Of a DNA stretch of 61,071 nucleotides, positions 2,923 to 51,780 are shown one piece after another. Source of the stretch: a virus (Duplodnaviria; Heunggongvirae; Uroviricota; Caudoviricetes); IMG/VR virus record IMGVR_UViG_2778261463_000006, positions 1 through 61,071 of that record; one strand, given 5' to 3'. A program made the position numbers and the translations under genes. Each line of letters starts with the position of its first letter. Position 1 is the first letter of the stretch. Under the pieces are notes generated by a model. That model was given only the letters and a program-made list of their open reading frames with translations. It was not told where the DNA came from and ran no database searches.

Positions 2923-3534
2923 TTAATTTCCTGCTTTCAGTTGCTTAAGACGACGTTTGAGTTCGCCATTCCGTGCCTTTTCGTTATTGAGTCGGCCCGT
3001 CTCCTTATCCAGCTTCGCCCGCAAATCAGTGATCTGCTGTTGATTGAAAGACACCGAATTCTGCGCGGACTTATAAGCGGCAACCACCTGAGCATTCCGC
3101 TGTTTTGCTTCTTGCAGGCGCTGAAAGTTGGATTTAACTGCCGGTTTCTTGTCTACCGGATTGGCAACACGCTTCGCTTTGGCGATCAGTGATTTCTGGA
3201 ATTTTGCGGAGTTTTTACGGGCCGCCTGTCCCATGACGGTACCAAGCGTCTTGATATCCGGCGATTGAGCGTTAGGAATAGCTTTTCCATTCAGCCTCAC
3301 AGACGATATATCGCCAGTATCGTTTACCTGTATGGCAAGAATTTGTCCGTCGTTAAGAACCAGCTTTGCGGTTTTAACTTTAACGCCATCTTTCGTTGTT
3401 GCGCGGTTGCTTGAGTCAACCTCAATTACCGTAACACTGGTTTTATTGATCGCCGCGATAAGGGATTTCAGCCCCTTTTCATTAACCTGGTCAAAATCGA
3501 CCGTTGCATACTTATTTTTCGTCATCTGACACAT
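2923..3534 (-). CDS. hdf: Hdf (homolog of DarA fragment)
   Basis: 203 aa; segment AARKNSAKFQKS matches DarA segment AEKNSAKFQRAQ; lies directly upstream of darA. Confidence 0.65.
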   Translation of the reverse strand: MCQMTKNKYATVDFDQVNEKGLKSLIAAINKTSVTVIEVDSSNRATTKDGVKVKTAKLVLNDGQILAIQVNDTGDISSVRLNGKAIPNAQSPDIKTLGTVMGQAARKNSAKFQKSLIAKAKRVANPVDKKPAVKSNFQRLQEAKQRNAQVVAAYKSAQNSVSFNQQQITDLRAKLDKETGRLNNEKARNGELKRRLKQLKAGN

Positions 3535-3955
3535 CCTGTGCGAGATTTATTACGTAACTTCTGCGGATTTGCTGAGTAACAGGGAAAATCCGATACAACG
3601 GGTTAATGAACGAGTCGCCATGCGTAACCATGACGTTGAAATGCCACAGCCGTTCTCCTTTACCCATATATTCAGTGGGTATGTACAACCATTCACTGTT
3701 TTCGCCCTGTTCAGCCGACGTCAGACAACGTTGTTCGCCTTCAATCACTGTCGTCGGCTTCTGAACATCGCGGATCCAATATCTGACCGTTGCGCCGCGC
3801 AAAAACGGGAATTTAGACCGGTATTTGAACGGCACCCGGATGAAACCCGGTTTAATTTCCACATCACCAAGTTCTAAATGCGTGATGTCCTTGCGTTTTA
3901 GCAAATAGCGATCGGCTAAGGCTAACGCAAGAACGCATACACCCCAGCCAATCAT
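3512..3955 (-). CDS. lydB: LydB-like antiholin candidate (147 aa)
   Basis: ORF between holin-like gene and hdf; N-terminal hydrophobic segment; assignment by P1 synteny only. Confidence 0.45.
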   Translation of the reverse strand: MIGWGVCVLALALADRYLLKRKDITHLELGDVEIKPGFIRVPFKYRSKFPFLRGATVRYWIRDVQKPTTVIEGEQRCLTSAEQGENSEWLYIPTEYMGKGERLWHFNVMVTHGDSFINPLYRIFPVTQQIRRSYVINLAQDVSDDEK

Positions 3956-4281
3956 TTCCCGCCTCCCTTTTTCACCAAACTTGTAAGAACATTCAGAATG
4001 CTATCGATATTCACTCGTTTCATCCCTGAAATCACCTCATGACCGTTATTGCTGGCTATCGTTACCATTAAGTACGTAATTGATAACTCCCAGCCCTTGT
4101 GTTGCCCCAATAGGTACGCCACCGCGCCAGCTGTCACTGCAACAAAGATCTCCGTAACCAATCCCAACAAATTGCCAGACTGGCGACCGTCTCGGACATC
4201 CATCAGGAACGTGCCTATCCCACCAATTACTGAAAGCAGGAGCGCAATAGCAACTGGAGCTAATTCCTGTGTGTCAAGCAC
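3952..4281 (-). CDS. lydA: LydA-like holin (109 aa, about three transmembrane segments)
   Basis: Small protein with three hydrophobic helices and charged C-terminus; start overlaps next gene; P1 lydA position. Confidence 0.55.
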   Translation of the reverse strand: MLDTQELAPVAIALLLSVIGGIGTFLMDVRDGRQSGNLLGLVTEIFVAVTAGAVAYLLGQHKGWELSITYLMVTIASNNGHEVISGMKRVNIDSILNVLTSLVKKGGGK

Positions 4282-4355
4282 AAGTTCCCTCCTACGTTGT
4301 CAGGAGGTAATGGTATGCAAAGTAACTTCTCAACCGGTTATGTTGCATAAGAGAC

Positions 4356-4619
4356 TTACCTATTCAACCGACTTTTGGAACCTTCAATAATAAGCCTGCT
4401 ATTGGCGCTGAAAATAAGAACCATGCAGCTCTGAAGGCTTTCATTCATGTCCTTATATTCCGCGAGATACATGCCAATAAAGCCAGCAAGTACGGCGGAA
4501 ATACATTCGGCCAGCAATTTCTTGCATGAAGACTCGTAACGGTTTTCACATAGCCCACTCAAATACGAATACACCCCACCAAGAAGGGATAACATCACGA
4601 TATGTACATAAAATGTCAT
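4356..4619 (-). CDS. Small membrane protein (87 aa, two hydrophobic segments), possible holin-like
   Basis: ORF with two hydrophobic stretches; first gene of the leftward lyd/dar block. Confidence 0.45.
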   Translation of the reverse strand: MTFYVHIVMLSLLGGVYSYLSGLCENRYESSCKKLLAECISAVLAGFIGMYLAEYKDMNESLQSCMVLIFSANSRLIIEGSKSRLNR

Positions 4620-21641: not shown

Positions 21642-22487
21642 ATGCTGGCTAAAGTCACTTTCCTGAGCTGTATAACGATGAGCGATTTTACTTTTTCTGG
21701 CTATGAATTGGCCTGCTTTGTAACACACTCCGGTCTATCCCGTAGCGCCGGGCATATCCTGTCGCAATGTGCAAATCTCGCGGCAACAACCAGTGAATAC
21801 TTCATTCACAAGCCTCACCGCCTGATCGCGGCAGAAACTGGTTATAGCCAATCAACCGTCGTTCGTGCATTCCGTGAAGCTGTAAACAAAGGAATTCTGT
21901 CTGTAGAGATTGTTATCGGCGATCACCGTGAACGTCGCGCTAACCTGTACCGGTTTACACCATCCTTTTTGGCCTTCGCACAACAAGCCAAAAATGCGCT
22001 GATTGAAAGCAAATTAAAGATCTCTTCAGCGGCAACCAAGGTTAAAGCTGTTCTCGCTAAGACATTGGCTTTATTTAATTTTTTATCCACACCCCCATGT
22101 CAAAATGATACCCCCTCCCCCTGTCAGGATGACGTGGCAATAAAGAATAAGAAGTCACAAGTTAAAAAAACAAAAAGATCAGTTTCCGGCGGTGCCGGAA
22201 CGACCAGACTCAAAAAATTGACTTCATGGATCGCTGAGGCAAAAGCAAAGGCTGACAATCTGCGGTTATCCAAAAAACGCGCTCAAAAACATGAGTTCAA
22301 GCAGAAAGTAGAGGCGGCAGCGCGGAAATATGCTTACCTGAAGAACAAGCGTTCTCCTGATATTGGCGGGGTATCAAACTTCGATAATCTGCCGCATTGC
22401 ATGACGGTAAACGAAGCTCTTAATGCGGTTTTAGCCAAAAATAAAGATAACGAACAATGGGGTATACCGGCAGGATTCAGAGGGTGA
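21642..22487 (+). CDS. repL: RepL-like lytic replication initiator (281 aa)
   Basis: 281-aa ORF directly downstream of kilA, basic central region; assignment by P1 kilA-repL synteny. Confidence 0.6.
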   Translation: MLAKVTFLSCITMSDFTFSGYELACFVTHSGLSRSAGHILSQCANLAATTSEYFIHKPHRLIAAETGYSQSTVVRAFREAVNKGILSVEIVIGDHRERRANLYRFTPSFLAFAQQAKNALIESKLKISSAATKVKAVLAKTLALFNFLSTPPCQNDTPSPCQDDVAIKNKKSQVKKTKRSVSGGAGTTRLKKLTSWIAEAKAKADNLRLSKKRAQKHEFKQKVEAAARKYAYLKNKRSPDIGGVSNFDNLPHCMTVNEALNAVLAKNKDNEQWGIPAGFRG

Positions 22488-33683: not shown

Positions 33684-33724
33684 TTTGGATGGCTGTTATC
33701 AACAGCTGTGAATATTCAGACTCT

Positions 33725-33935
33725 AAAATCGCGTACAGTCAATGTTTCTGTCGCGTATAGTCAACAATAAATCGCGTGCAGTCAACAATAAATCGTGCAC
33801 AGTCAACATAAAATCGCGTATAGTCAATGTTGATCCCATTTCAGGCCAGTAATGACGCGGCTTACAGCGATCCGGGATCTTCTTTGGATCTTCCTAGGTT
33901 CTCTTTAGGATCTGTTTATTGGATCTATGCTGTGG
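33725..33935. other. oriR: incC iterons (5), GATC-rich AT-rich region and DnaA box
   Basis: Five ~21-bp spaced iterons TCGCGTATAGTCAA-like at 33726-33832; six GATC sites 33836-33915; DnaA box TGTGGATAA at 33921-33929. Confidence 0.7.
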
Positions 33936-33982
33936 ATAAGTTGAATAAACCGGCCAACAAAGCCGGTTGGAAGGAAGTCATA

Positions 33983-34375
33983 TTATTCTACGCTTTCGAT
34001 AAGAAGACCATGTTCATAACATTTAAGCTCATCGCCTTCATACAGGAATTGGTATCCAACACCACCATCTTCATGGACATTAGGGAATAACTCATAACTC
34101 ACTGAAGAGCAAATCACACCAATGCAGCGATCAACTCCTTCTCGTTCTTCAGTGCTGAAAAAATCCTCTTCGGTAAGAACATGAGTACATTGCTCATCAG
34201 CATAGGTCGGAAATACATGCTCAATGCAATCCGGGTGTTTTAAACCAAGCTGATCGGCAAGCTCGAAAGCACGACGGTATTGTTCAGATCCTGGCTTGCC
34301 AACAGTGATTTGCTCAATTTTGTAGATTGAAGTCGCTTTGTTGATAGTTTGCTTTACTGTTACTTTATCAGACAT
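33983..34375 (-). CDS. UpfA-like hypothetical protein (130 aa)
   Basis: ORF upstream of oriR; P1 synteny. Confidence 0.5.
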   Translation of the reverse strand: MSDKVTVKQTINKATSIYKIEQITVGKPGSEQYRRAFELADQLGLKHPDCIEHVFPTYADEQCTHVLTEEDFFSTEEREGVDRCIGVICSSVSYELFPNVHEDGGVGYQFLYEGDELKCYEHGLLIESVE

Positions 34376-34386
34376 AAAAATCCCTT

Positions 34387-34638
34387 TTAGTTACCGCTAA
34401 TAGCTCGGTTGTAATCATTAACGTTGCGATTCTTCCTGTTAATCCCCATCAGCATCGTTTCTGTATCGAGGATATACGCTGGCAGATCATCAAAATATTC
34501 ACTGCTAAACTCTGGCATCCTGCACATAAATGCACTTTTGGGGGCAGGGTGGTTAACCTTTGTCGGCGTCGGCGTTAAATTCGCTGATCGACTCCCGGAG
34601 CAACCGCTGAGTGTCAGCAGGAATACGCTGGCGAACAT
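34387..34638 (-). CDS. mlp: Lipoprotein Mlp-like; Rz1-like o-spanin candidate (start at internal Met)
   Basis: Lipobox LTLSGC, Pro-rich mature N-terminus LTPTPTKVNHPAPKS; start embedded out of frame in the 3' end of ppfA. Confidence 0.5.
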   Translation of the reverse strand: MFASVFLLTLSGCSGSRSANLTPTPTKVNHPAPKSAFMCRMPEFSSEYFDDLPAYILDTETMLMGINRKNRNVNDYNRAISGN

Positions 34639-35002
34639 TACCCGCCGCAACCAGTTGTTTCTGAACTTCAGCTTTTCGTTCCATTTGCCTGTCAGCATAC
34701 TTGGCTTGTTCTGATTCATTTTTCACTTCCTGGCTGTGAAAATGTTGATCTGCTTTGTTCATCGTCTCAATGGTCTGGTTAAGATCCATTATTGACTTAT
34801 CACGTTCCTTAACAGCCTGATCAAGACTGCCAATTTTCTCCATGGCTTGCTTTAGCTGATGACGTTCCCACGCAAACCCAGCACCAACAAGTGCGCAAAT
34901 CAGAACAAGAACACCAGTAGCAGCAAGTTTCTCCTTCAAAGACAAAGCTGTTTTTAACGTAGAAAAGAATGACATGTCTTCCTCCTGAAGAAAAATTATC
35001 AA
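34553..35002 (-). CDS. ppfA: PpfA-like; Rz-like i-spanin candidate (N-terminal TM plus coiled coil)
   Basis: TM segment LAATGVLVLICALVGAGFAW followed by E/K/Q-rich helical region; overlaps lipoprotein gene. Confidence 0.5.
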   Translation of the reverse strand: MIIFLQEEDMSFFSTLKTALSLKEKLAATGVLVLICALVGAGFAWERHQLKQAMEKIGSLDQAVKERDKSIMDLNQTIETMNKADQHFHSQEVKNESEQAKYADRQMERKAEVQKQLVAAGNVRQRIPADTQRLLRESISEFNADADKG

Positions 35003-35014
35003 TGAAGTCCTTTG

Positions 35015-35860
35015 TTACTGTGCCGCTTTGTTTAATTCATCAAGAACAGAATCAGGAACCAAAGCGGCAACTGCGCTGGCTGTGCTGGCCTTATTTGCTG
35101 ATGCTTCCGCAAGCGCGGTACCGATAGCATGGTTATAAGCAGTTATGGCTACGTTGGCGCTTTCATTCGCTCGTTCATACTGCTGTTGTAACGCAGTTGT
35201 GGGCGCTGTTGTCTGGTTGAAAACAACCCCAAACTGTTCAGTTGCTACTTTCAGAGATTCAATTTGCTCTTCTGTTAGTGCTGGTGGGGGAGTGGCAGTG
35301 CCGCCGCCTGAACCAGAGCCTGACGAGCTTCCTGAGCCAGTGTTAAGGGTCTGGTTAATCTCCCCCATAGCAGCGACTAAACTTGATGTATTAAGCGCGT
35401 TAACAGCGTCCTCAAGCGATTTAGTAATATTCACATCACCAATGGCAATAGAGATCGGCAGTTCTGAAACTTCTCGCTCATTAGCACGGCAGTAAACATC
35501 CCAACCAATATCGAGTTGAAGCAGCATTGACAGATCTGCATAACCAGCCAACAGGTCCGCGTGCTTAGTTGCCAGTTCTCCAATGTTCGTTAAGCCGGTT
35601 GTGGTTGTTCTGATCGTTGAAACATAGCTGGTAATAGTGTCGGGATAGACAATTGTATCCAGAATTAATCCGGTCAATTCTTCTGCAAGCAGTTTTGCTG
35701 TGTTAGCACTGTTTCGTGCCGATGTTATGGCACCAGGTGTTTTCATCCCACCGGCGGCGGCCAATTTTTTATATGCGGATAACTGGTAGTCTTTTTCCAG
35801 CATGATATCTCCTAACTTACCTGAACCAGGCCGTCTCCGGACGCTACGGTAGATCCGCAT
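35015..35860 (-). CDS. UpfB-like protein with Gly/Ser-rich linker (about 262-281 aa)
   Basis: Contains GSGSSSGSGSGGG linker; synteny. Confidence 0.5.
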   Translation of the reverse strand: MRIYRSVRRRPGSGKLGDIMLEKDYQLSAYKKLAAAGGMKTPGAITSARNSANTAKLLAEELTGLILDTIVYPDTITSYVSTIRTTTTGLTNIGELATKHADLLAGYADLSMLLQLDIGWDVYCRANEREVSELPISIAIGDVNITKSLEDAVNALNTSSLVAAMGEINQTLNTGSGSSSGSGSGGGTATPPPALTEEQIESLKVATEQFGVVFNQTTAPTTALQQQYERANESANVAITAYNHAIGTALAEASANKASTASAVAALVPDSVLDELNKAAQ

Positions 35861-36096
35861 GAAACAGGGTCACCAACGCATACGATCCCTTTACCATTGA
35901 CGGTAAACCATGCCCTGGTTGATATAGCTTGCCCACCGTGCGTACTGTTTCCATCGGTATGCTGTGCATATTGCTTACCATCAACTAACACTTCGACTCC
36001 GTTGACTTTAAGTAGTGGTTCACTCTCTACAGGAGGCCTGGATGGGAATCCTCCGTGCCCCGAACAAATGCTGTCTTTTGTTGCAATACTTGCCAC
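35812..36096 (-). CDS. PAAR-like small protein (UpfC-like, 94 aa)
   Basis: Motifs CSGHGG, HGGQ and VNGKGIVCVGDPVSCG resemble the PAAR / PAAR-like fold. Confidence 0.45.
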   Translation of the reverse strand: MASIATKDSICSGHGGFPSRPPVESEPLLKVNGVEVLVDGKQYAQHTDGNSTHGGQAISTRAWFTVNGKGIVCVGDPVSCGSTVASGDGLVQVS

Positions 36097-36177
36097 GCCA
36101 TCACCAATTATTTGCTCTGATTTTCGTTATTTTAACTTAGGTTATTTGTGGGCTGTATGGCGTTTACTTATTACAAA

Positions 36178-36194
36178 ATTGCTCTAATAAATAT
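36178..36194 (+). promoter_or_regulatory. C1 operator-like site upstream of uhr-hrdC-dmt
   Basis: ATTGCTCTAATAAATAT, 16/17. Confidence 0.65.
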
Positions 36195-36265
36195 TGTTTT
36201 TTATGTCGTATTTTCGGTACCATTCAGCCATCGCCCTTCAATGGGCATTTGTTTGGAGTCGTCAG

Positions 36266-36550
36266 ATGCAGATGGAGCTAATAAGCCGCAAAGAGTTCGA
36301 TAGCCGTGTAACCAGCGGTGAACTCGACAACTTGCAGGCTATCAAGGTGAAAGAAGGCTTTTGCCTCATTGGGAATCAGAGCGGAACAAATCGCGTTTTT
36401 ATGCTTCGCCGTACGGATTTGAAGCCATTTGTCTGGAAGAACGAAATTGGTCCCAGCTCATACGCTCAAACGAGGGGGTGCCACAACCTGGCCTTTTTCT
36501 ACAAAGACGAGCTTTCTGTGGTTGATATTCAAGGGTTACAACATGTTTAA
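36266..36550 (+). CDS. Uhr-like small protein (about 94 aa)
   Basis: ORF with GGAG RBS before ATG at 36266; stop overlaps hrdC start. Confidence 0.45.
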
Positions 36551-50954: not shown

Positions 50955-51150
50955 AATAATAAATTAATTAGTGCATATACGCTCTTTGTGATAGTGCACT
51001 TTAACATCGGGAGAATAATCGTGTCATCCAAGGTTAATTATGAGTCGCTGGCATCGGTCATGCCGCGTAATGAACAGGAAACAGATGCTGTAGTGGACCC
51101 TGTAATCGCTGAAATGAATGCTCGCCTGGAGGCTGAATTTGCAGCTGAGA

Positions 51151-51780
51151 ATGAACATACCACCCAGGGCGACTAGGACTGTTTTTTGTGTCGGTAGCGG
51201 TCCGTCACTCACTCGTGAGGACTGTGCTGCTATAGAAAAAACTGGCTGTTCAATCATCGCGGTTAACAATTCCTGGCAGATGTTCGATGACATTTATGCC
51301 TTATACGCCGGTGATTTGTCATGGTGGAAGCAATACGGATCCACCATACCGGGAGGGAGATTCCGCAAAGTGACAGCCAACCTGGCGGCGGCGAAATCAT
51401 TTTCGTTGGAGTACAGGCGATATTGTGGACCGGCGGAAGGGGTAAATAGCGGCGCGCAGGCTATCAGTCTGGCTGCTGAATCAGGGGCTGAAGTAGTGGT
51501 ATTAGTCGGCTATGACTGTTCTCTGCAAAACGGCCTTCATTGGCATGGCGCGCACCCTCAAGCACTACGGAATCCAACGCAGGTGTCTATTTCAAAATGG
51601 CAACAGCAGTTCCTGGATACCCGCAAAAAACACGCAGATTTACATATTTTGAATGCAAGTAGGAGCAGTGCAATTCAATGTTTCCCAAGAATAAATTTAG
51701 AGGCAGTGATCGCGTTATTATCGTCGGCAGTGGCCCAAGCGCCGCAAACTTTGTTGCGCCGCGCGGAGTGCCGATTATAG
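51151..51780 (+). CDS. MptE/DUF115-like protein (GSGPS motif), paralog 1
   Basis: Motif FCVGSGPSLT...SIIAVNNS; start uncertain (51118 or 51151). Confidence 0.45.
   Translation: MNIPPRATRTVFCVGSGPSLTREDCAAIEKTGCSIIAVNNSWQMFDDIYALYAGDLSWWKQYGSTIPGGRFRKVTANLAAAKSFSLEYRRYCGPAEGVNSGAQAISLAAESGAEVVVLVGYDCSLQNGLHWHGAHPQALRNPTQVSISKWQQQFLDTRKKHADLHILNASRSSAIQCFPRINLEAVIALLSSAVAQAPQTLLRRAECRL

What the first reader, a model, noticed from the sequence alone, without database searches (positions are those of the whole stretch)
34387..35002. ppfA/mlp pair has spanin (Rz/Rz1-like) architecture, far from the holin genes
The upstream gene encodes an N-terminal TM helix plus a long coiled coil (i-spanin-like). 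The downstream gene starts out of frame inside its 3' end and encodes a lipobox lipoprotein with a Pro-rich mature region and a single Cys (o-spanin-like). If these are the spanins, the lysis functions are split between the darA operon (lydA/lydB) and the plasmid-maintenance region.
Basis: inference. Interest (0 to 1): 0.45.

Follow-up and report, generated by a model that had tools for sequence, protein, structure and literature searches.

The report
Phage P1 spanin gene pair ppfA/mlp

Summary
The window is a P1-like phage-plasmid, 96-99% identical to P1 and P7. The described pair is real and lies on the minus strand.

- **ppfA** (34553..34975, 140 aa) has one N-terminal transmembrane helix and a long helical periplasmic domain.
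- **mlp** (34387..34719, 110 aa) starts in the +1 frame, 167 nt inside ppfA. It encodes a lipoprotein with signal ...LTLSG|C, Ser at +2, a TPTP/HPAP stretch and one further Cys.

The spanin reading is supported by several lines:
- PHROG profiles put PpfA in the family of P2 LysB and Mlp next to P2 LysC. Mlp aligns to LysC at 37% identity (E=1e-7).
- The layout matches the overlapped P2 lysB/lysC pair.
- A 60%-identical Cronobacter phage keeps every feature.
- Published RNA-seq shows late-gene kinetics.

The assignment is not new. Summer et al. 2007 made it. SpaninDB (Kongari 2018) lists P1 gp064/gp063 as an overlapped i-/o-spanin pair. RefSeq and GenBank records already say "Rz-like spanin" or "Rz/Rz1".

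Function is still untested, and CRISPRi knock-downs scored both genes non-essential for plaques.

One small addition from this work: a conserved, unannotated site resembling an Lpa-dependent late promoter sits just upstream of ppfA.

The parts
34553..34975 (-). ppfA, predicted i-spanin (140 aa, ATG start; stop included)
   Evidence: ORF. Start and SD. phrog_89 'Rz-like spanin' E=2.5e-25, the same PHROG as P2 LysB. SpaninDB P1 gp064 'OIS'. 98.6% identical to P1 PpfA.
34868..34927 (-). codons for the single N-terminal transmembrane helix of PpfA (about aa 17-36)
   Evidence: KD hydropathy maximum 2.35 at aa 17-35, with Lys residues on the N-terminal side. Helical in the AF2 model. SpaninDB counts 36 N-terminal residues as cytoplasmic plus TMD.
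34387..34719 (-). mlp, predicted o-spanin lipoprotein precursor (110 aa; stop included)
   Evidence: ORF. phrog_30284 'Rz-like spanin' E=6.5e-79 and phrog_456 (P2 LysC family) E=2.7e-5. BLASTP to P2 LysC 37% over 68 aa, E=1e-7. 100% identical to P1 Mlp. SpaninDB P1 gp063 'OOS'.
34600..34611 (-). lipobox codons L37-S38-G39-C40 of Mlp; cleavage before Cys40, Ser at +2
   Evidence: Regex and hydropathy scan. SpaninDB note: LipoP cleavage at position 39, 'too long signal sequence'. Conserved as LSA|C in JK004.
34553..34719 (-). 167-nt dual-coding overlap; mlp is in the +1 frame relative to ppfA
   Evidence: Coordinates and frame arithmetic. P2 lysB/lysC have the same +1 overlapped layout with 146 nt. 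JK004 overlap is 164 nt.
34981..34986 (-). Shine-Dalgarno AGGAGG of ppfA
   Evidence: Sequence read. Conserved in JK004. Same motif marked in SpaninDB.
34726..34731 (-). Shine-Dalgarno AGGAAG of mlp, inside ppfA
   Evidence: Sequence read. It is AGGAGG in JK004. Marked in SpaninDB.
34991..35017 (-). candidate Lpa-type late promoter just upstream of ppfA (box AAAGGACTT, 4-nt spacer, -10 GATAAT); inferred, not annotated in P1
   Evidence: A PWM built from 10 annotated P1 late promoters ranks it 7th of about 122,000 window positions. Its score is 11.8 against 22-30 for canonical sites. The best hit of the whole JK004 locus (16.5) sits at the homologous position.
36125..36151 (-). second weak late-promoter-like site about 50 nt upstream of upfC (box AAATAACCT, -10 TAAAAT); inferred
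   Evidence: PWM rank 13 in the window, score 9.5. A weaker site at the same distance from the upfC-like gene in JK004, score 7.3.
35812..36096 (-). upfC, PAAR-like protein, first gene of the cluster
   Evidence: phrog_281 E=2e-30. PF05488 at 26.4 bits, just under the 27-bit cut-off. P1 note cites similarity to T4 ORF 5.4.
35015..35860 (-). upfB, unknown function, second gene of the cluster
   Evidence: phrog_1559, unknown function. 90% identical to P1 UpfB.
33983..34375 (-). upfA, unknown function, last gene of the cluster, followed by a weak terminator-like hairpin and then oriR
   Evidence: phrog_1453. Terminator-like site 33970..33954 on the minus strand. P1 map.
3515..4281 (-). lydB (about 3515-3955) and lydA (about 3955-4281): antiholin and holin of the darA operon, about 30 kb from the spanin pair
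   Evidence: tblastn with the P1 proteins, 98.6-99.1% identity. P1 annotation.

Best explanation
ppfA and mlp encode the two-component spanin of this P1-like phage. It is a distant relative of the overlapped P2 LysB/LysC pair.

Inferred mechanism, by analogy with lambda Rz/Rz1:
1. Late in infection PpfA inserts into the inner membrane through its N-terminal helix. Its roughly 100-residue helical domain extends into the periplasm.
2. Mlp is exported, lipidated at Cys40, cleaved by signal peptidase II, and sorted to the outer membrane by Lol because +2 is Ser.
3. The C-terminal parts of the two proteins bind across the periplasm. Mlp probably dimerises through its single free Cys.
4. The SAR-endolysin Lyz, timed by LydA/LydB, removes the peptidoglycan. 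The complexes then collapse and fuse the inner and outer membranes, which releases the virions.

Shown here: the gene layout, the localisation signals, profile and pairwise homology to P2 LysB/LysC, and conservation in a diverged phage.

Taken from the literature: the prior assignment as spanins and the late transcript kinetics.

Inferred only: complex formation, the disulfide, membrane fusion, and the candidate late promoter upstream of ppfA.
For: - **Layout and signals:** single N-terminal TMD plus a helical periplasmic domain in PpfA. Lipobox LSG|C, Ser at +2, a 71-aa mature Mlp with one Cys and a TPTP/HPAP stretch. +1-frame overlap of 167 nt.
- **Homology, i-spanin:** PpfA hits phrog_89 at E=2.5e-25. 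P2 LysB hits the same PHROG at 5.8e-61.
- **Homology, o-spanin:** Mlp hits phrog_456, the P2 LysC family, at E=2.7e-5. LysC reciprocally hits Mlp's phrog_30284 at 5.4e-4. Mlp against LysC by BLASTP gives 37% over 68 aa, E=1e-7, covering the lipobox, the Pro stretch and the Cys.
- **Conservation:** all features are kept in Cronobacter phage JK004 at 59-63% protein identity.
- **No rival:** no other ORF in a plausible gene of the window, or of P1 nt 1-32000 (including lyz-lydD-lydE), carries a lipoprotein signal.
- **Late expression:** P1vir RNA-seq Table S1 of PMC8201110 gives WT log fold change at 10 then 30 min as ppfA 5.6 to 11.2, mlp 4.1 to 10.5, upfA/B/C 4.1-5.2 to 10.6-11.2. These match lyz (6.1 to 11.3), lydA (5.2 to 11.8) and prt (4.7 to 11.2). 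They differ from the neighbours repA (7.4 to 10.2), parA (9.5 to 11.5) and uhr (8.6 to 11.1).
- **Candidate promoter:** a late-promoter-like site immediately upstream of ppfA is conserved in JK004.
- **Prior literature and annotation:**
Against: - No experiment has tested the function. Bednarek et al. 2022 say so explicitly.
- CRISPRi knock-downs in P1vir scored both genes non-essential for plaque formation: EOP ppfA 1.3/1.2 and mlp 0.24/0.19. In the same study lambda Rz scored as essential. Those authors attribute false 'essential' calls to CRISPRi polarity. Bednarek et al. also note that spanins are not essential for lysis in shaken laboratory cultures.
- No Pfam spanin family is hit.
- The NCBIfam LysB equivalog scores 18 bits against a cut-off of 92.75.
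- PpfA gives no BLAST alignment with LysB and only E=0.26 with lambda Rz.
- The Mlp signal peptide is unusually long at 39 aa. SpaninDB flags it as 'too long'.
- No canonical Lpa late promoter precedes the cluster. The candidate site scores far below the known ones.
- The genes are not next to any holin or endolysin gene.
Confidence: 0.85

Rival explanations
1. The pair is a prophage-expressed envelope module rather than a lysis function. It would be a membrane protein plus a lipoprotein made from sigma-70 promoters in the plasmid state, for example for superinfection exclusion or surface modification. It would be placed next to the replicon because it belongs to the lysogenic programme.
For: - It lies directly beside oriR/repA/par.
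- The P1 record predicts only sigma-70 promoters (P1ppfA, P2ppfA) and no late promoter there.
- Both genes are dispensable for plaque formation in CRISPRi.
- Phage lipoproteins with exclusion roles are known (general knowledge, e.g. T5 Llp).
Against: - Transcripts are low at 10 min and rise about 60-fold by 30 min, like structural and lysis genes and unlike repA/parA.
- Both proteins show profile or pairwise homology to the P2 LysB/LysC spanin pair.
- The +1 overlapped TMD-protein/lipoprotein layout is the spanin signature.
- The first gene of the cluster is a PAAR-like virion-type protein (Pfam hit just below cut-off).
- A late-promoter-like site is conserved upstream of ppfA.
Confidence: 0.05
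2. The genes descend from spanins but are now redundant or vestigial in P1. Outer-membrane disruption at lysis would be achieved by something else, such as another P1 protein or shear in culture. Losing them would then have no phenotype.
For: - CRISPRi scored both non-essential.
- P1 has an unusually complex, redundant lysis gene set with three or four holin-like proteins.
- About 13% of phages of Gram-negative hosts lack recognisable spanins: 91 of 677.
Against: - Mlp is 96-100% identical across P1-like phages.
- Both frames, both SD sequences, the lipobox and the Cys are maintained at about 60% identity in JK004. That argues for purifying selection on both proteins.
- No alternative spanin candidate was found.
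- A plaque assay is a poor read-out for spanin function (on shaking cultures).
Confidence: 0.08
3. mlp is not a real gene. It would be a chance open frame inside and beyond ppfA, and only ppfA (or neither) is expressed.
For: - Some records annotate only a 44-46-aa fragment, or nothing, at mlp.
- The predicted signal peptide is atypically long.
Against: - The full 110-aa frame, its start codon context, the lipobox and the C-terminal half (SEYFDDLPAYILDT.TML.GINRKNRN) are conserved in JK004 despite about 30% nucleotide divergence.
- Significant similarity to P2 LysC.
- Its own PHROG family, hit at E=6.5e-79.
- Missing or truncated o-spanin calls are a documented annotation artefact: 196 of 528 not identified.
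Confidence: 0.02

Closest known systems
Phage P1 PpfA (gp064) / Mlp (gp063), as listed in SpaninDB (Kongari et al. 2018) and first proposed by Summer et al. 2007
   Same: It is the same gene pair. Mlp is 100% identical and PpfA 98.6% identical (2 substitutions). The start codons, overlap class ('ovl'), lipobox TLSG|C and Cys counts (0 periplasmic in the i-spanin, 1 in the o-spanin) all match.
   Different: Only strain-level differences. The window as a whole is closer to vB_EcoM-Ro157c2YLVW and other P1-like phage-plasmids (98-99%) than to reference P1 (95.8%) over the 2-kb query.
Phage P2 LysB / LysC (overlapped two-component spanin)
   Same: - Same PHROG for the i-spanin (phrog_89) and cross-hits between the o-spanin PHROGs.
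- Mlp and LysC are 37% identical over 68 aa, including the lipobox region, the PTP stretch and a Cys followed by MP.
- Same +1-frame overlapped layout with very similar geometry: 146-nt overlap with a 145-nt extension in P2, against 167 and 166 here.
- Similar sizes: 141/96 aa against 140/110 aa.
   Different: - PpfA and LysB give no pairwise BLAST alignment.
- The NCBIfam LysB equivalog is far below its cut-off.
- LysC has 4 extra Cys and LysB has 2 periplasmic Cys (sequence). Mlp has 1 and PpfA none.
- P2 lysB/lysC sit in the lysis cassette right after Y-K-lysA. The P1 pair is about 30 kb from the holins and, in P1 coordinates, about 42 kb from lyz.
- By SpaninDB's 40%/40% rule, P1 forms its own family.
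Phage lambda Rz / Rz1 (embedded two-component spanin, the experimental paradigm)
   Same: Same protein types: a type II inner-membrane protein with a helical periplasmic domain, and a small Pro-containing outer-membrane lipoprotein with one free Cys. The o-spanin gene is in the +1 frame. There is a weak local resemblance around ...VAAG..R..I....
   Different: - No significant sequence similarity: E=0.26 and 0.005 in pairwise comparisons. The PHROGs differ (phrog_13 / phrog_3198) and there is no Pfam hit.
- Rz1 is fully embedded in Rz, whereas mlp runs past the end of ppfA.
- Rz has two periplasmic Cys and PpfA none.
- Rz1 is 24% Pro and 41 aa long. Mlp is 8.5% Pro and 71 aa long, with a conserved, probably structured C-terminal half.
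Phage T4 PseT.3 / PseT.2 (separated spanin genes unlinked to holin and endolysin)
   Same: It is a precedent for spanin genes lying far from the holin and endolysin genes (Fig. 8 legend of Kongari et al. 2018). The i-spanin has no periplasmic Cys and the Cys is only in the o-spanin.
   Different: The T4 genes do not overlap. PseT.2 has two essential Cys. No sequence comparison with T4 was run here.

Membership tests
Two-component spanin (i-spanin + o-spanin; criteria of Summer 2007 / Kongari 2018) | i-spanin: a single N-terminal transmembrane domain (type II) with the rest of the protein periplasmic and largely alpha-helical | tested here: met
   Hydropathy peak at aa 17-36 with Lys on the N-terminal side. 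AF2 helices 4-116 and 120-138, pLDDT 80.8. Heptad signal at aa 37-75 above 500 of 500 shuffles.
Two-component spanin (i-spanin + o-spanin; criteria of Summer 2007 / Kongari 2018) | o-spanin: signal peptidase II signal with a lipobox and no inner-membrane retention residue (Asp) at +2 | tested here: met
   ...FLLTLSG|CSG, hydrophobic h-region, Arg/Lys n-region, Ser at +2. LipoP result quoted in SpaninDB. Caveat: the signal is 39 aa long.
Two-component spanin (i-spanin + o-spanin; criteria of Summer 2007 / Kongari 2018) | Gene architecture: the o-spanin gene is embedded in, overlapping, or immediately following the i-spanin gene | tested here: met
   Overlapped class: +1 frame, 167-nt overlap.
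Two-component spanin (i-spanin + o-spanin; criteria of Summer 2007 / Kongari 2018) | At least one periplasmic Cys available for a homotypic intermolecular disulfide (507 of 528 systems) | tested here: met
   One free Cys in mature Mlp and none in periplasmic PpfA. It is conserved in JK004 and aligned with a Cys of LysC. Disulfide formation itself was not tested.
Two-component spanin (i-spanin + o-spanin; criteria of Summer 2007 / Kongari 2018) | Expressed late, together with the other lysis genes | tested here: met
   Published RNA-seq values read show a late-class profile. The promoter is only inferred.
Two-component spanin (i-spanin + o-spanin; criteria of Summer 2007 / Kongari 2018) | The two proteins form a periplasm-spanning complex through their C-terminal regions | not testable with these tools
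   No complex predictor or experiment was available.
Two-component spanin (i-spanin + o-spanin; criteria of Summer 2007 / Kongari 2018) | Needed for outer-membrane disruption (Mg2+-stabilised spherical cells in mutants; complements lambda Rz-am Rz1-am) | not testable with these tools
   The literature says it is unverified for P1. The CRISPRi plaque assay scored both non-essential, which is not a test of this phenotype.
P2 LysB/LysC spanin family | Sequence-profile membership of the i-spanin with LysB | tested here: inconclusive
   Same PHROG (phrog_89: PpfA 2.5e-25, LysB 5.8e-61). But NCBIfam TIGR03495 scores 18.4 bits against a cut-off of 92.75, and there is no pairwise BLAST alignment. PpfA is a distant relative, not an equivalog.
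P2 LysB/LysC spanin family | Sequence similarity of the o-spanin to LysC | tested here: met
   BLASTP 37% over 68 aa, E=1e-7. Reciprocal PHROG cross-hits.
Lambda Rz/Rz1 family (Pfam spanin families) | Significant match to the Pfam/PHROG profiles that contain lambda Rz and Rz1 | tested here: not met
   No Pfam hit above noise. Lambda Rz/Rz1 fall in phrog_13/phrog_3198, which PpfA and Mlp do not hit. Pairwise E=0.26 and 0.005.
Unimolecular spanin (T1 gp11 type) | [quoted passage not shown] | tested here: not met
   Mlp has no second hydrophobic segment. No other lipobox ORF in a plausible gene was found.

The most novel reading that the evidence does not exclude
The spanin pair may be its own late transcription unit. 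It would be driven by a so-far unannotated, weak Lpa-dependent late promoter ('LPppfA', window 35017..34991, minus strand) lying between upfB and ppfA. A second weak site lies upstream of upfC.

If so, P1 would time outer-membrane disruption through Lpa independently of the holin and endolysin operons, and not through the sigma-70 promoters predicted in the reference annotation.

The evidence does not exclude this. It is mildly favoured by the positional conservation in Cronobacter phage JK004 and by the late RNA-seq kinetics.
Probability: 0.45. Interest if true: 0.2.

Novelty: already known. Interest (0 to 1): 0.1.

Why it matters
The finding has little discovery value, because the assignment has been in the literature since 2007 and in SpaninDB, PHROGs and RefSeq since.

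What remains of value:
- **An open experimental gap.** P1 is a workhorse phage whose spanins have never been tested. Its lysis genes are scattered over four loci, so a clean ppfA/mlp knockout with lambda complementation would close the gap.
- **Annotation hygiene.** Several P1-like records still call these genes hypothetical, or truncate mlp to a 44-46-aa fragment. One paper swaps the i-/o- labels.
- **Timing of expression.** The candidate late promoter would explain how an unlinked spanin pair is co-timed with the rest of lysis.

Tried and rejected
- **Pfam scan of both proteins.** Only noise-level coiled-coil hits came back, so Pfam gave no help.
- **Strict search for the P1 late-promoter -22 box (at most 1 mismatch).** Nothing was found upstream of ppfA, upfB or upfC. 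Only a relaxed search and a PWM revealed the weak site.
- **Generic sigma-70 and terminator scan of 33700-36500.** Counts were no higher than in shuffles, so it was not informative.
- **Rival spanin candidates.**
  - The lipobox scan found only two other ORFs in the window (21923-22090 and 51024-51269, both minus strand).
  - I rejected both. They are short, and by rough extrapolation from the P1 map, not a computed alignment, they fall opposite plus-strand genes (about repL and pmgN/pmgO). One leaves only a 20-aa mature part.
  - upl/plp was considered as a 'separated' pair and rejected. Upl has no TMD. The annotated Plp has no signal peptide and overlaps tRNA-Thr (69426-69501) on the opposite strand.
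  - lydD/lydE downstream of lyz have no lipobox.
- **Reading Lobocka et al. 2004 by PMC id.** The paper is not held.
- **Large protein and contig database searches, and fold searches.** I did not run them. The identity of the genes was settled without them.
Full report
**Identity of the window.** A 2-kb query around the finding matches P1-like phages and phage-plasmids at 95.8-98.8% identity: P1, P7, SJ46, RCS47 and vB_EcoM-Ro157c2YLVW. Mapping against the reference P1 record puts window 644-4923 on P1 27546-31836, and the finding on P1 63354-63942. The holin/antiholin genes lydA/lydB and a diverged lydC are therefore in the window at about 3515-4601. The endolysin operon lyz-lydD-lydE (P1 20013-20882) lies outside it.

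**The observation.** Both ORFs are on the minus strand.
- ppfA most likely starts at ATG 34975, 5 nt after AGGAGG.
- PpfA (140 aa) has one hydrophobic helix at about aa 17-36, with Lys residues before it. The 104-aa remainder is charged and free of Cys.
- AlphaFold2 without an alignment predicts helices 4-116 and 120-138, mean pLDDT 80.8.
- A simple heptad score is above all 500 shuffles for about aa 37-75.
- mlp starts at ATG 34719 behind AGGAAG, in the +1 frame. It overlaps ppfA by 167 nt and extends 166 nt beyond it.
- Mlp carries ...FLLTLSG|CSG, with Ser at +2. The mature part is 71 aa, with 6 Pro (5 in the first 35) and one further Cys.

The description is accurate. 'Pro-rich' is modest compared with lambda Rz1, which has 10 Pro in 41 residues.

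**What it is.**
- PHROG profiles call both proteins Rz-like spanins: PpfA hits phrog_89 at E=2.5e-25, and Mlp hits phrog_30284 at 6.5e-79 and phrog_456 at 2.7e-5.
- Scanning the experimentally studied pairs shows that phrog_89 is the family of P2 LysB (5.8e-61) and phrog_456 that of P2 LysC. LysC reciprocally touches Mlp's own PHROG.
- Mlp aligns with LysC at 37% identity over 68 residues (E=1e-7). The alignment runs through the lipobox, a PTP stretch and a Cys followed by MP.
- P2 lysB/lysC have the same +1 overlapped layout, with a 146-nt overlap.
- The relationship is distant. PpfA gives no BLAST alignment with LysB. The NCBIfam LysB equivalog is far below its cut-off. Pfam is silent. Lambda Rz/Rz1 are only marginally similar.

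**Related sequences.** tblastn finds the pair in about 20 phage records. All but one are P1-like at 96% identity or more. The exception is Cronobacter phage JK004. Its PpfA-like protein is 59% identical and its Mlp-like protein 63%. It keeps both frames, a 164-nt overlap, the TMD, the lipobox LSA|C, TPTP, the Cys in FMCRMPEF, both Shine-Dalgarno sequences and a strongly conserved Mlp C-terminal half. That argues for selection on both proteins and against a chance ORF.

**Rivals inside the phage.** A lipoprotein-signal scan of all six frames finds mlp and two short ORFs in the window. By rough extrapolation from the P1 map, not a computed alignment, those two fall opposite plus-strand genes. 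The scan finds nothing in P1 nt 1-32000, which includes the genes downstream of the endolysin. LydD, LydE, Upl and Plp do not have spanin features.

**Expression.**
- The P1 record annotates only predicted sigma-70 promoters inside upfB and no late promoter for the upfC-upfB-ppfA-mlp-upfA cluster. A strict search for the late -22 box finds none.
- Published P1vir RNA-seq (PMC8201110, Table S1) nevertheless gives all five genes a late profile. WT log fold change is 4.1-5.6 at 10 min and 10.5-11.2 at 30 min.
- That is the range of lyz, lydA, lydB, prt and gene 23. It lies below every early gene, including the adjacent repA, parA, uhr, hrdC and dmt.
- A PWM from the ten annotated 19-bp late promoters of P1 ranks a site immediately upstream of ppfA 7th of about 122,000 window positions. 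The site is 35017..34991, minus strand: AAAGGACTT, 4 nt, GATAAT. It comes directly after six canonical-scoring sites, but scores only 11.8 against their 22-30.
- In the JK004 locus the single best PWM hit (16.5; AAATGACCT, 4 nt, GAAAAT) is at the homologous position, 37 nt before the ppfA-like ATG.
- An ungapped comparison conserves the box, the -10 and the Shine-Dalgarno sequence, but not the spacers. A weaker pair of sites sits about 50 nt upstream of upfC in both phages.
- I treat this as a plausible, unannotated, weak Lpa-type promoter. It is an inference only.

**Comparison with what is known.**
- Bednarek et al. [quoted passage not shown] 2007 and were not verified experimentally.
- That sentence labels ppfA the o-spanin and mlp the i-spanin. 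This is the reverse of what the sequences and SpaninDB show.
- SpaninDB (Kongari et al. 2018, Table S1) lists P1 NC_005856 as 'ovl'. Its i-spanin is gp064 (140 aa, 0 periplasmic Cys, 'one in TMD'). Its o-spanin is gp063 (110 aa, signal 39 aa, 'Too long signal sequence', lipobox TLSG, 1 Cys, LipoP site at 39). Each is in a family named P1.
- RefSeq names mlp 'Rz-like spanin', and several GenBank records say Rz/Rz1.
- Spanin genes unlinked to the holin and endolysin have a precedent in T4.
- My recollection of the Summer 2007 abstract is that P1 is named among classic phages that lacked annotated Rz/Rz1 equivalents before that study. This rests on memory, not on a tool result.

**Evidence that cuts the other way.** CRISPRi knock-downs in P1vir scored ppfA (EOP 1.3/1.2) and mlp (0.24/0.19) as non-essential for plaque formation. 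This does not test the spanin phenotype. Spanins are not needed for lysis in shaken cultures, and the CRISPRi authors warn about polarity artefacts in 'essential' calls. Even so, no positive functional evidence exists.

**Verdict.** The corrections are:
- The genes are on the minus strand.
- ppfA starts at 34975.
- P1 lysis genes occupy four loci rather than two.
- The pair belongs to a late-expressed cluster that abuts the plasmid replicon but is not part of it.

The only mildly new item is the conserved late-promoter-like site upstream of ppfA.

Noticed in passing
window 48328..48302 (minus strand); P1 NC_005856 76802..76776: A strong match to the P1 late-promoter PWM (CAACAAGTGACTGGTGATAACCTC, score 22.1, in the range of canonical late promoters). 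It is not among the late promoters annotated in the RefSeq P1 record. It lies at the 3' end of gene 7 (P1 76119-76847), 45 nt downstream of that gene's start on the minus strand. It may be an internal late promoter within the gene 26-25-7-24-6-5 operon.
   Followed up: partly
window 35812-36096 (upfC) and 35015-35860 (upfB), minus strand: The genes upstream of the spanin pair look virion-related rather than plasmid-related. UpfC is PAAR-like (phrog_281 E=2e-30; PF05488 26.4 bits, just under cut-off). UpfB (phrog_1559, unknown) has a Ser/Gly-rich linker and is only 90% identical to P1 UpfB, while its neighbours are 97-100%.
   Followed up: partly
window about 4383-4601, minus strand (lydC): The LydC homologue is only 67% identical to P1 LydC, whereas LydA and LydB are about 99% identical. 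This fits the published remark that LydC is the one lysis protein that differs between P1 and P7.
   Followed up: no
window 40359-40733, minus strand (plp); P1 69472-69849: The gene annotated 'plp, putative lipoprotein' has a TTG start and no recognisable signal peptide or lipobox. It encodes a Cys-rich sequence and overlaps tRNA-Thr (P1 69426-69501) on the opposite strand. It looks like a doubtful gene call.
   Followed up: partly
L002 (MH422554) 1988-2128; L008 (JK004) 4458-4592: In these records the o-spanin gene is annotated only as a 44-46-aa fragment starting at the internal Met65. That loses the signal peptide and lipobox, a typical o-spanin mis-call. In vB_EcoM-Ro157c2YLVW and JK004 the pair is labelled 'hypothetical protein'.
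   Followed up: yes
literature: PMC9025707, Introduction: [quoted passage not shown] The labels are swapped relative to the sequences (PpfA has the TMD, Mlp has the lipobox) and relative to SpaninDB.
   Followed up: yes
window 34600-34719, minus strand (Mlp signal peptide): The Mlp signal peptide is 39 aa with a long, basic n-region. The length and the first Met are conserved in JK004, with a one-codon shift. Because this stretch is also the conserved C-terminus of PpfA in another frame, it is unclear which protein constrains it. Alternative starts exist at Met8 and at a TTG at codon 24.
   Followed up: partly
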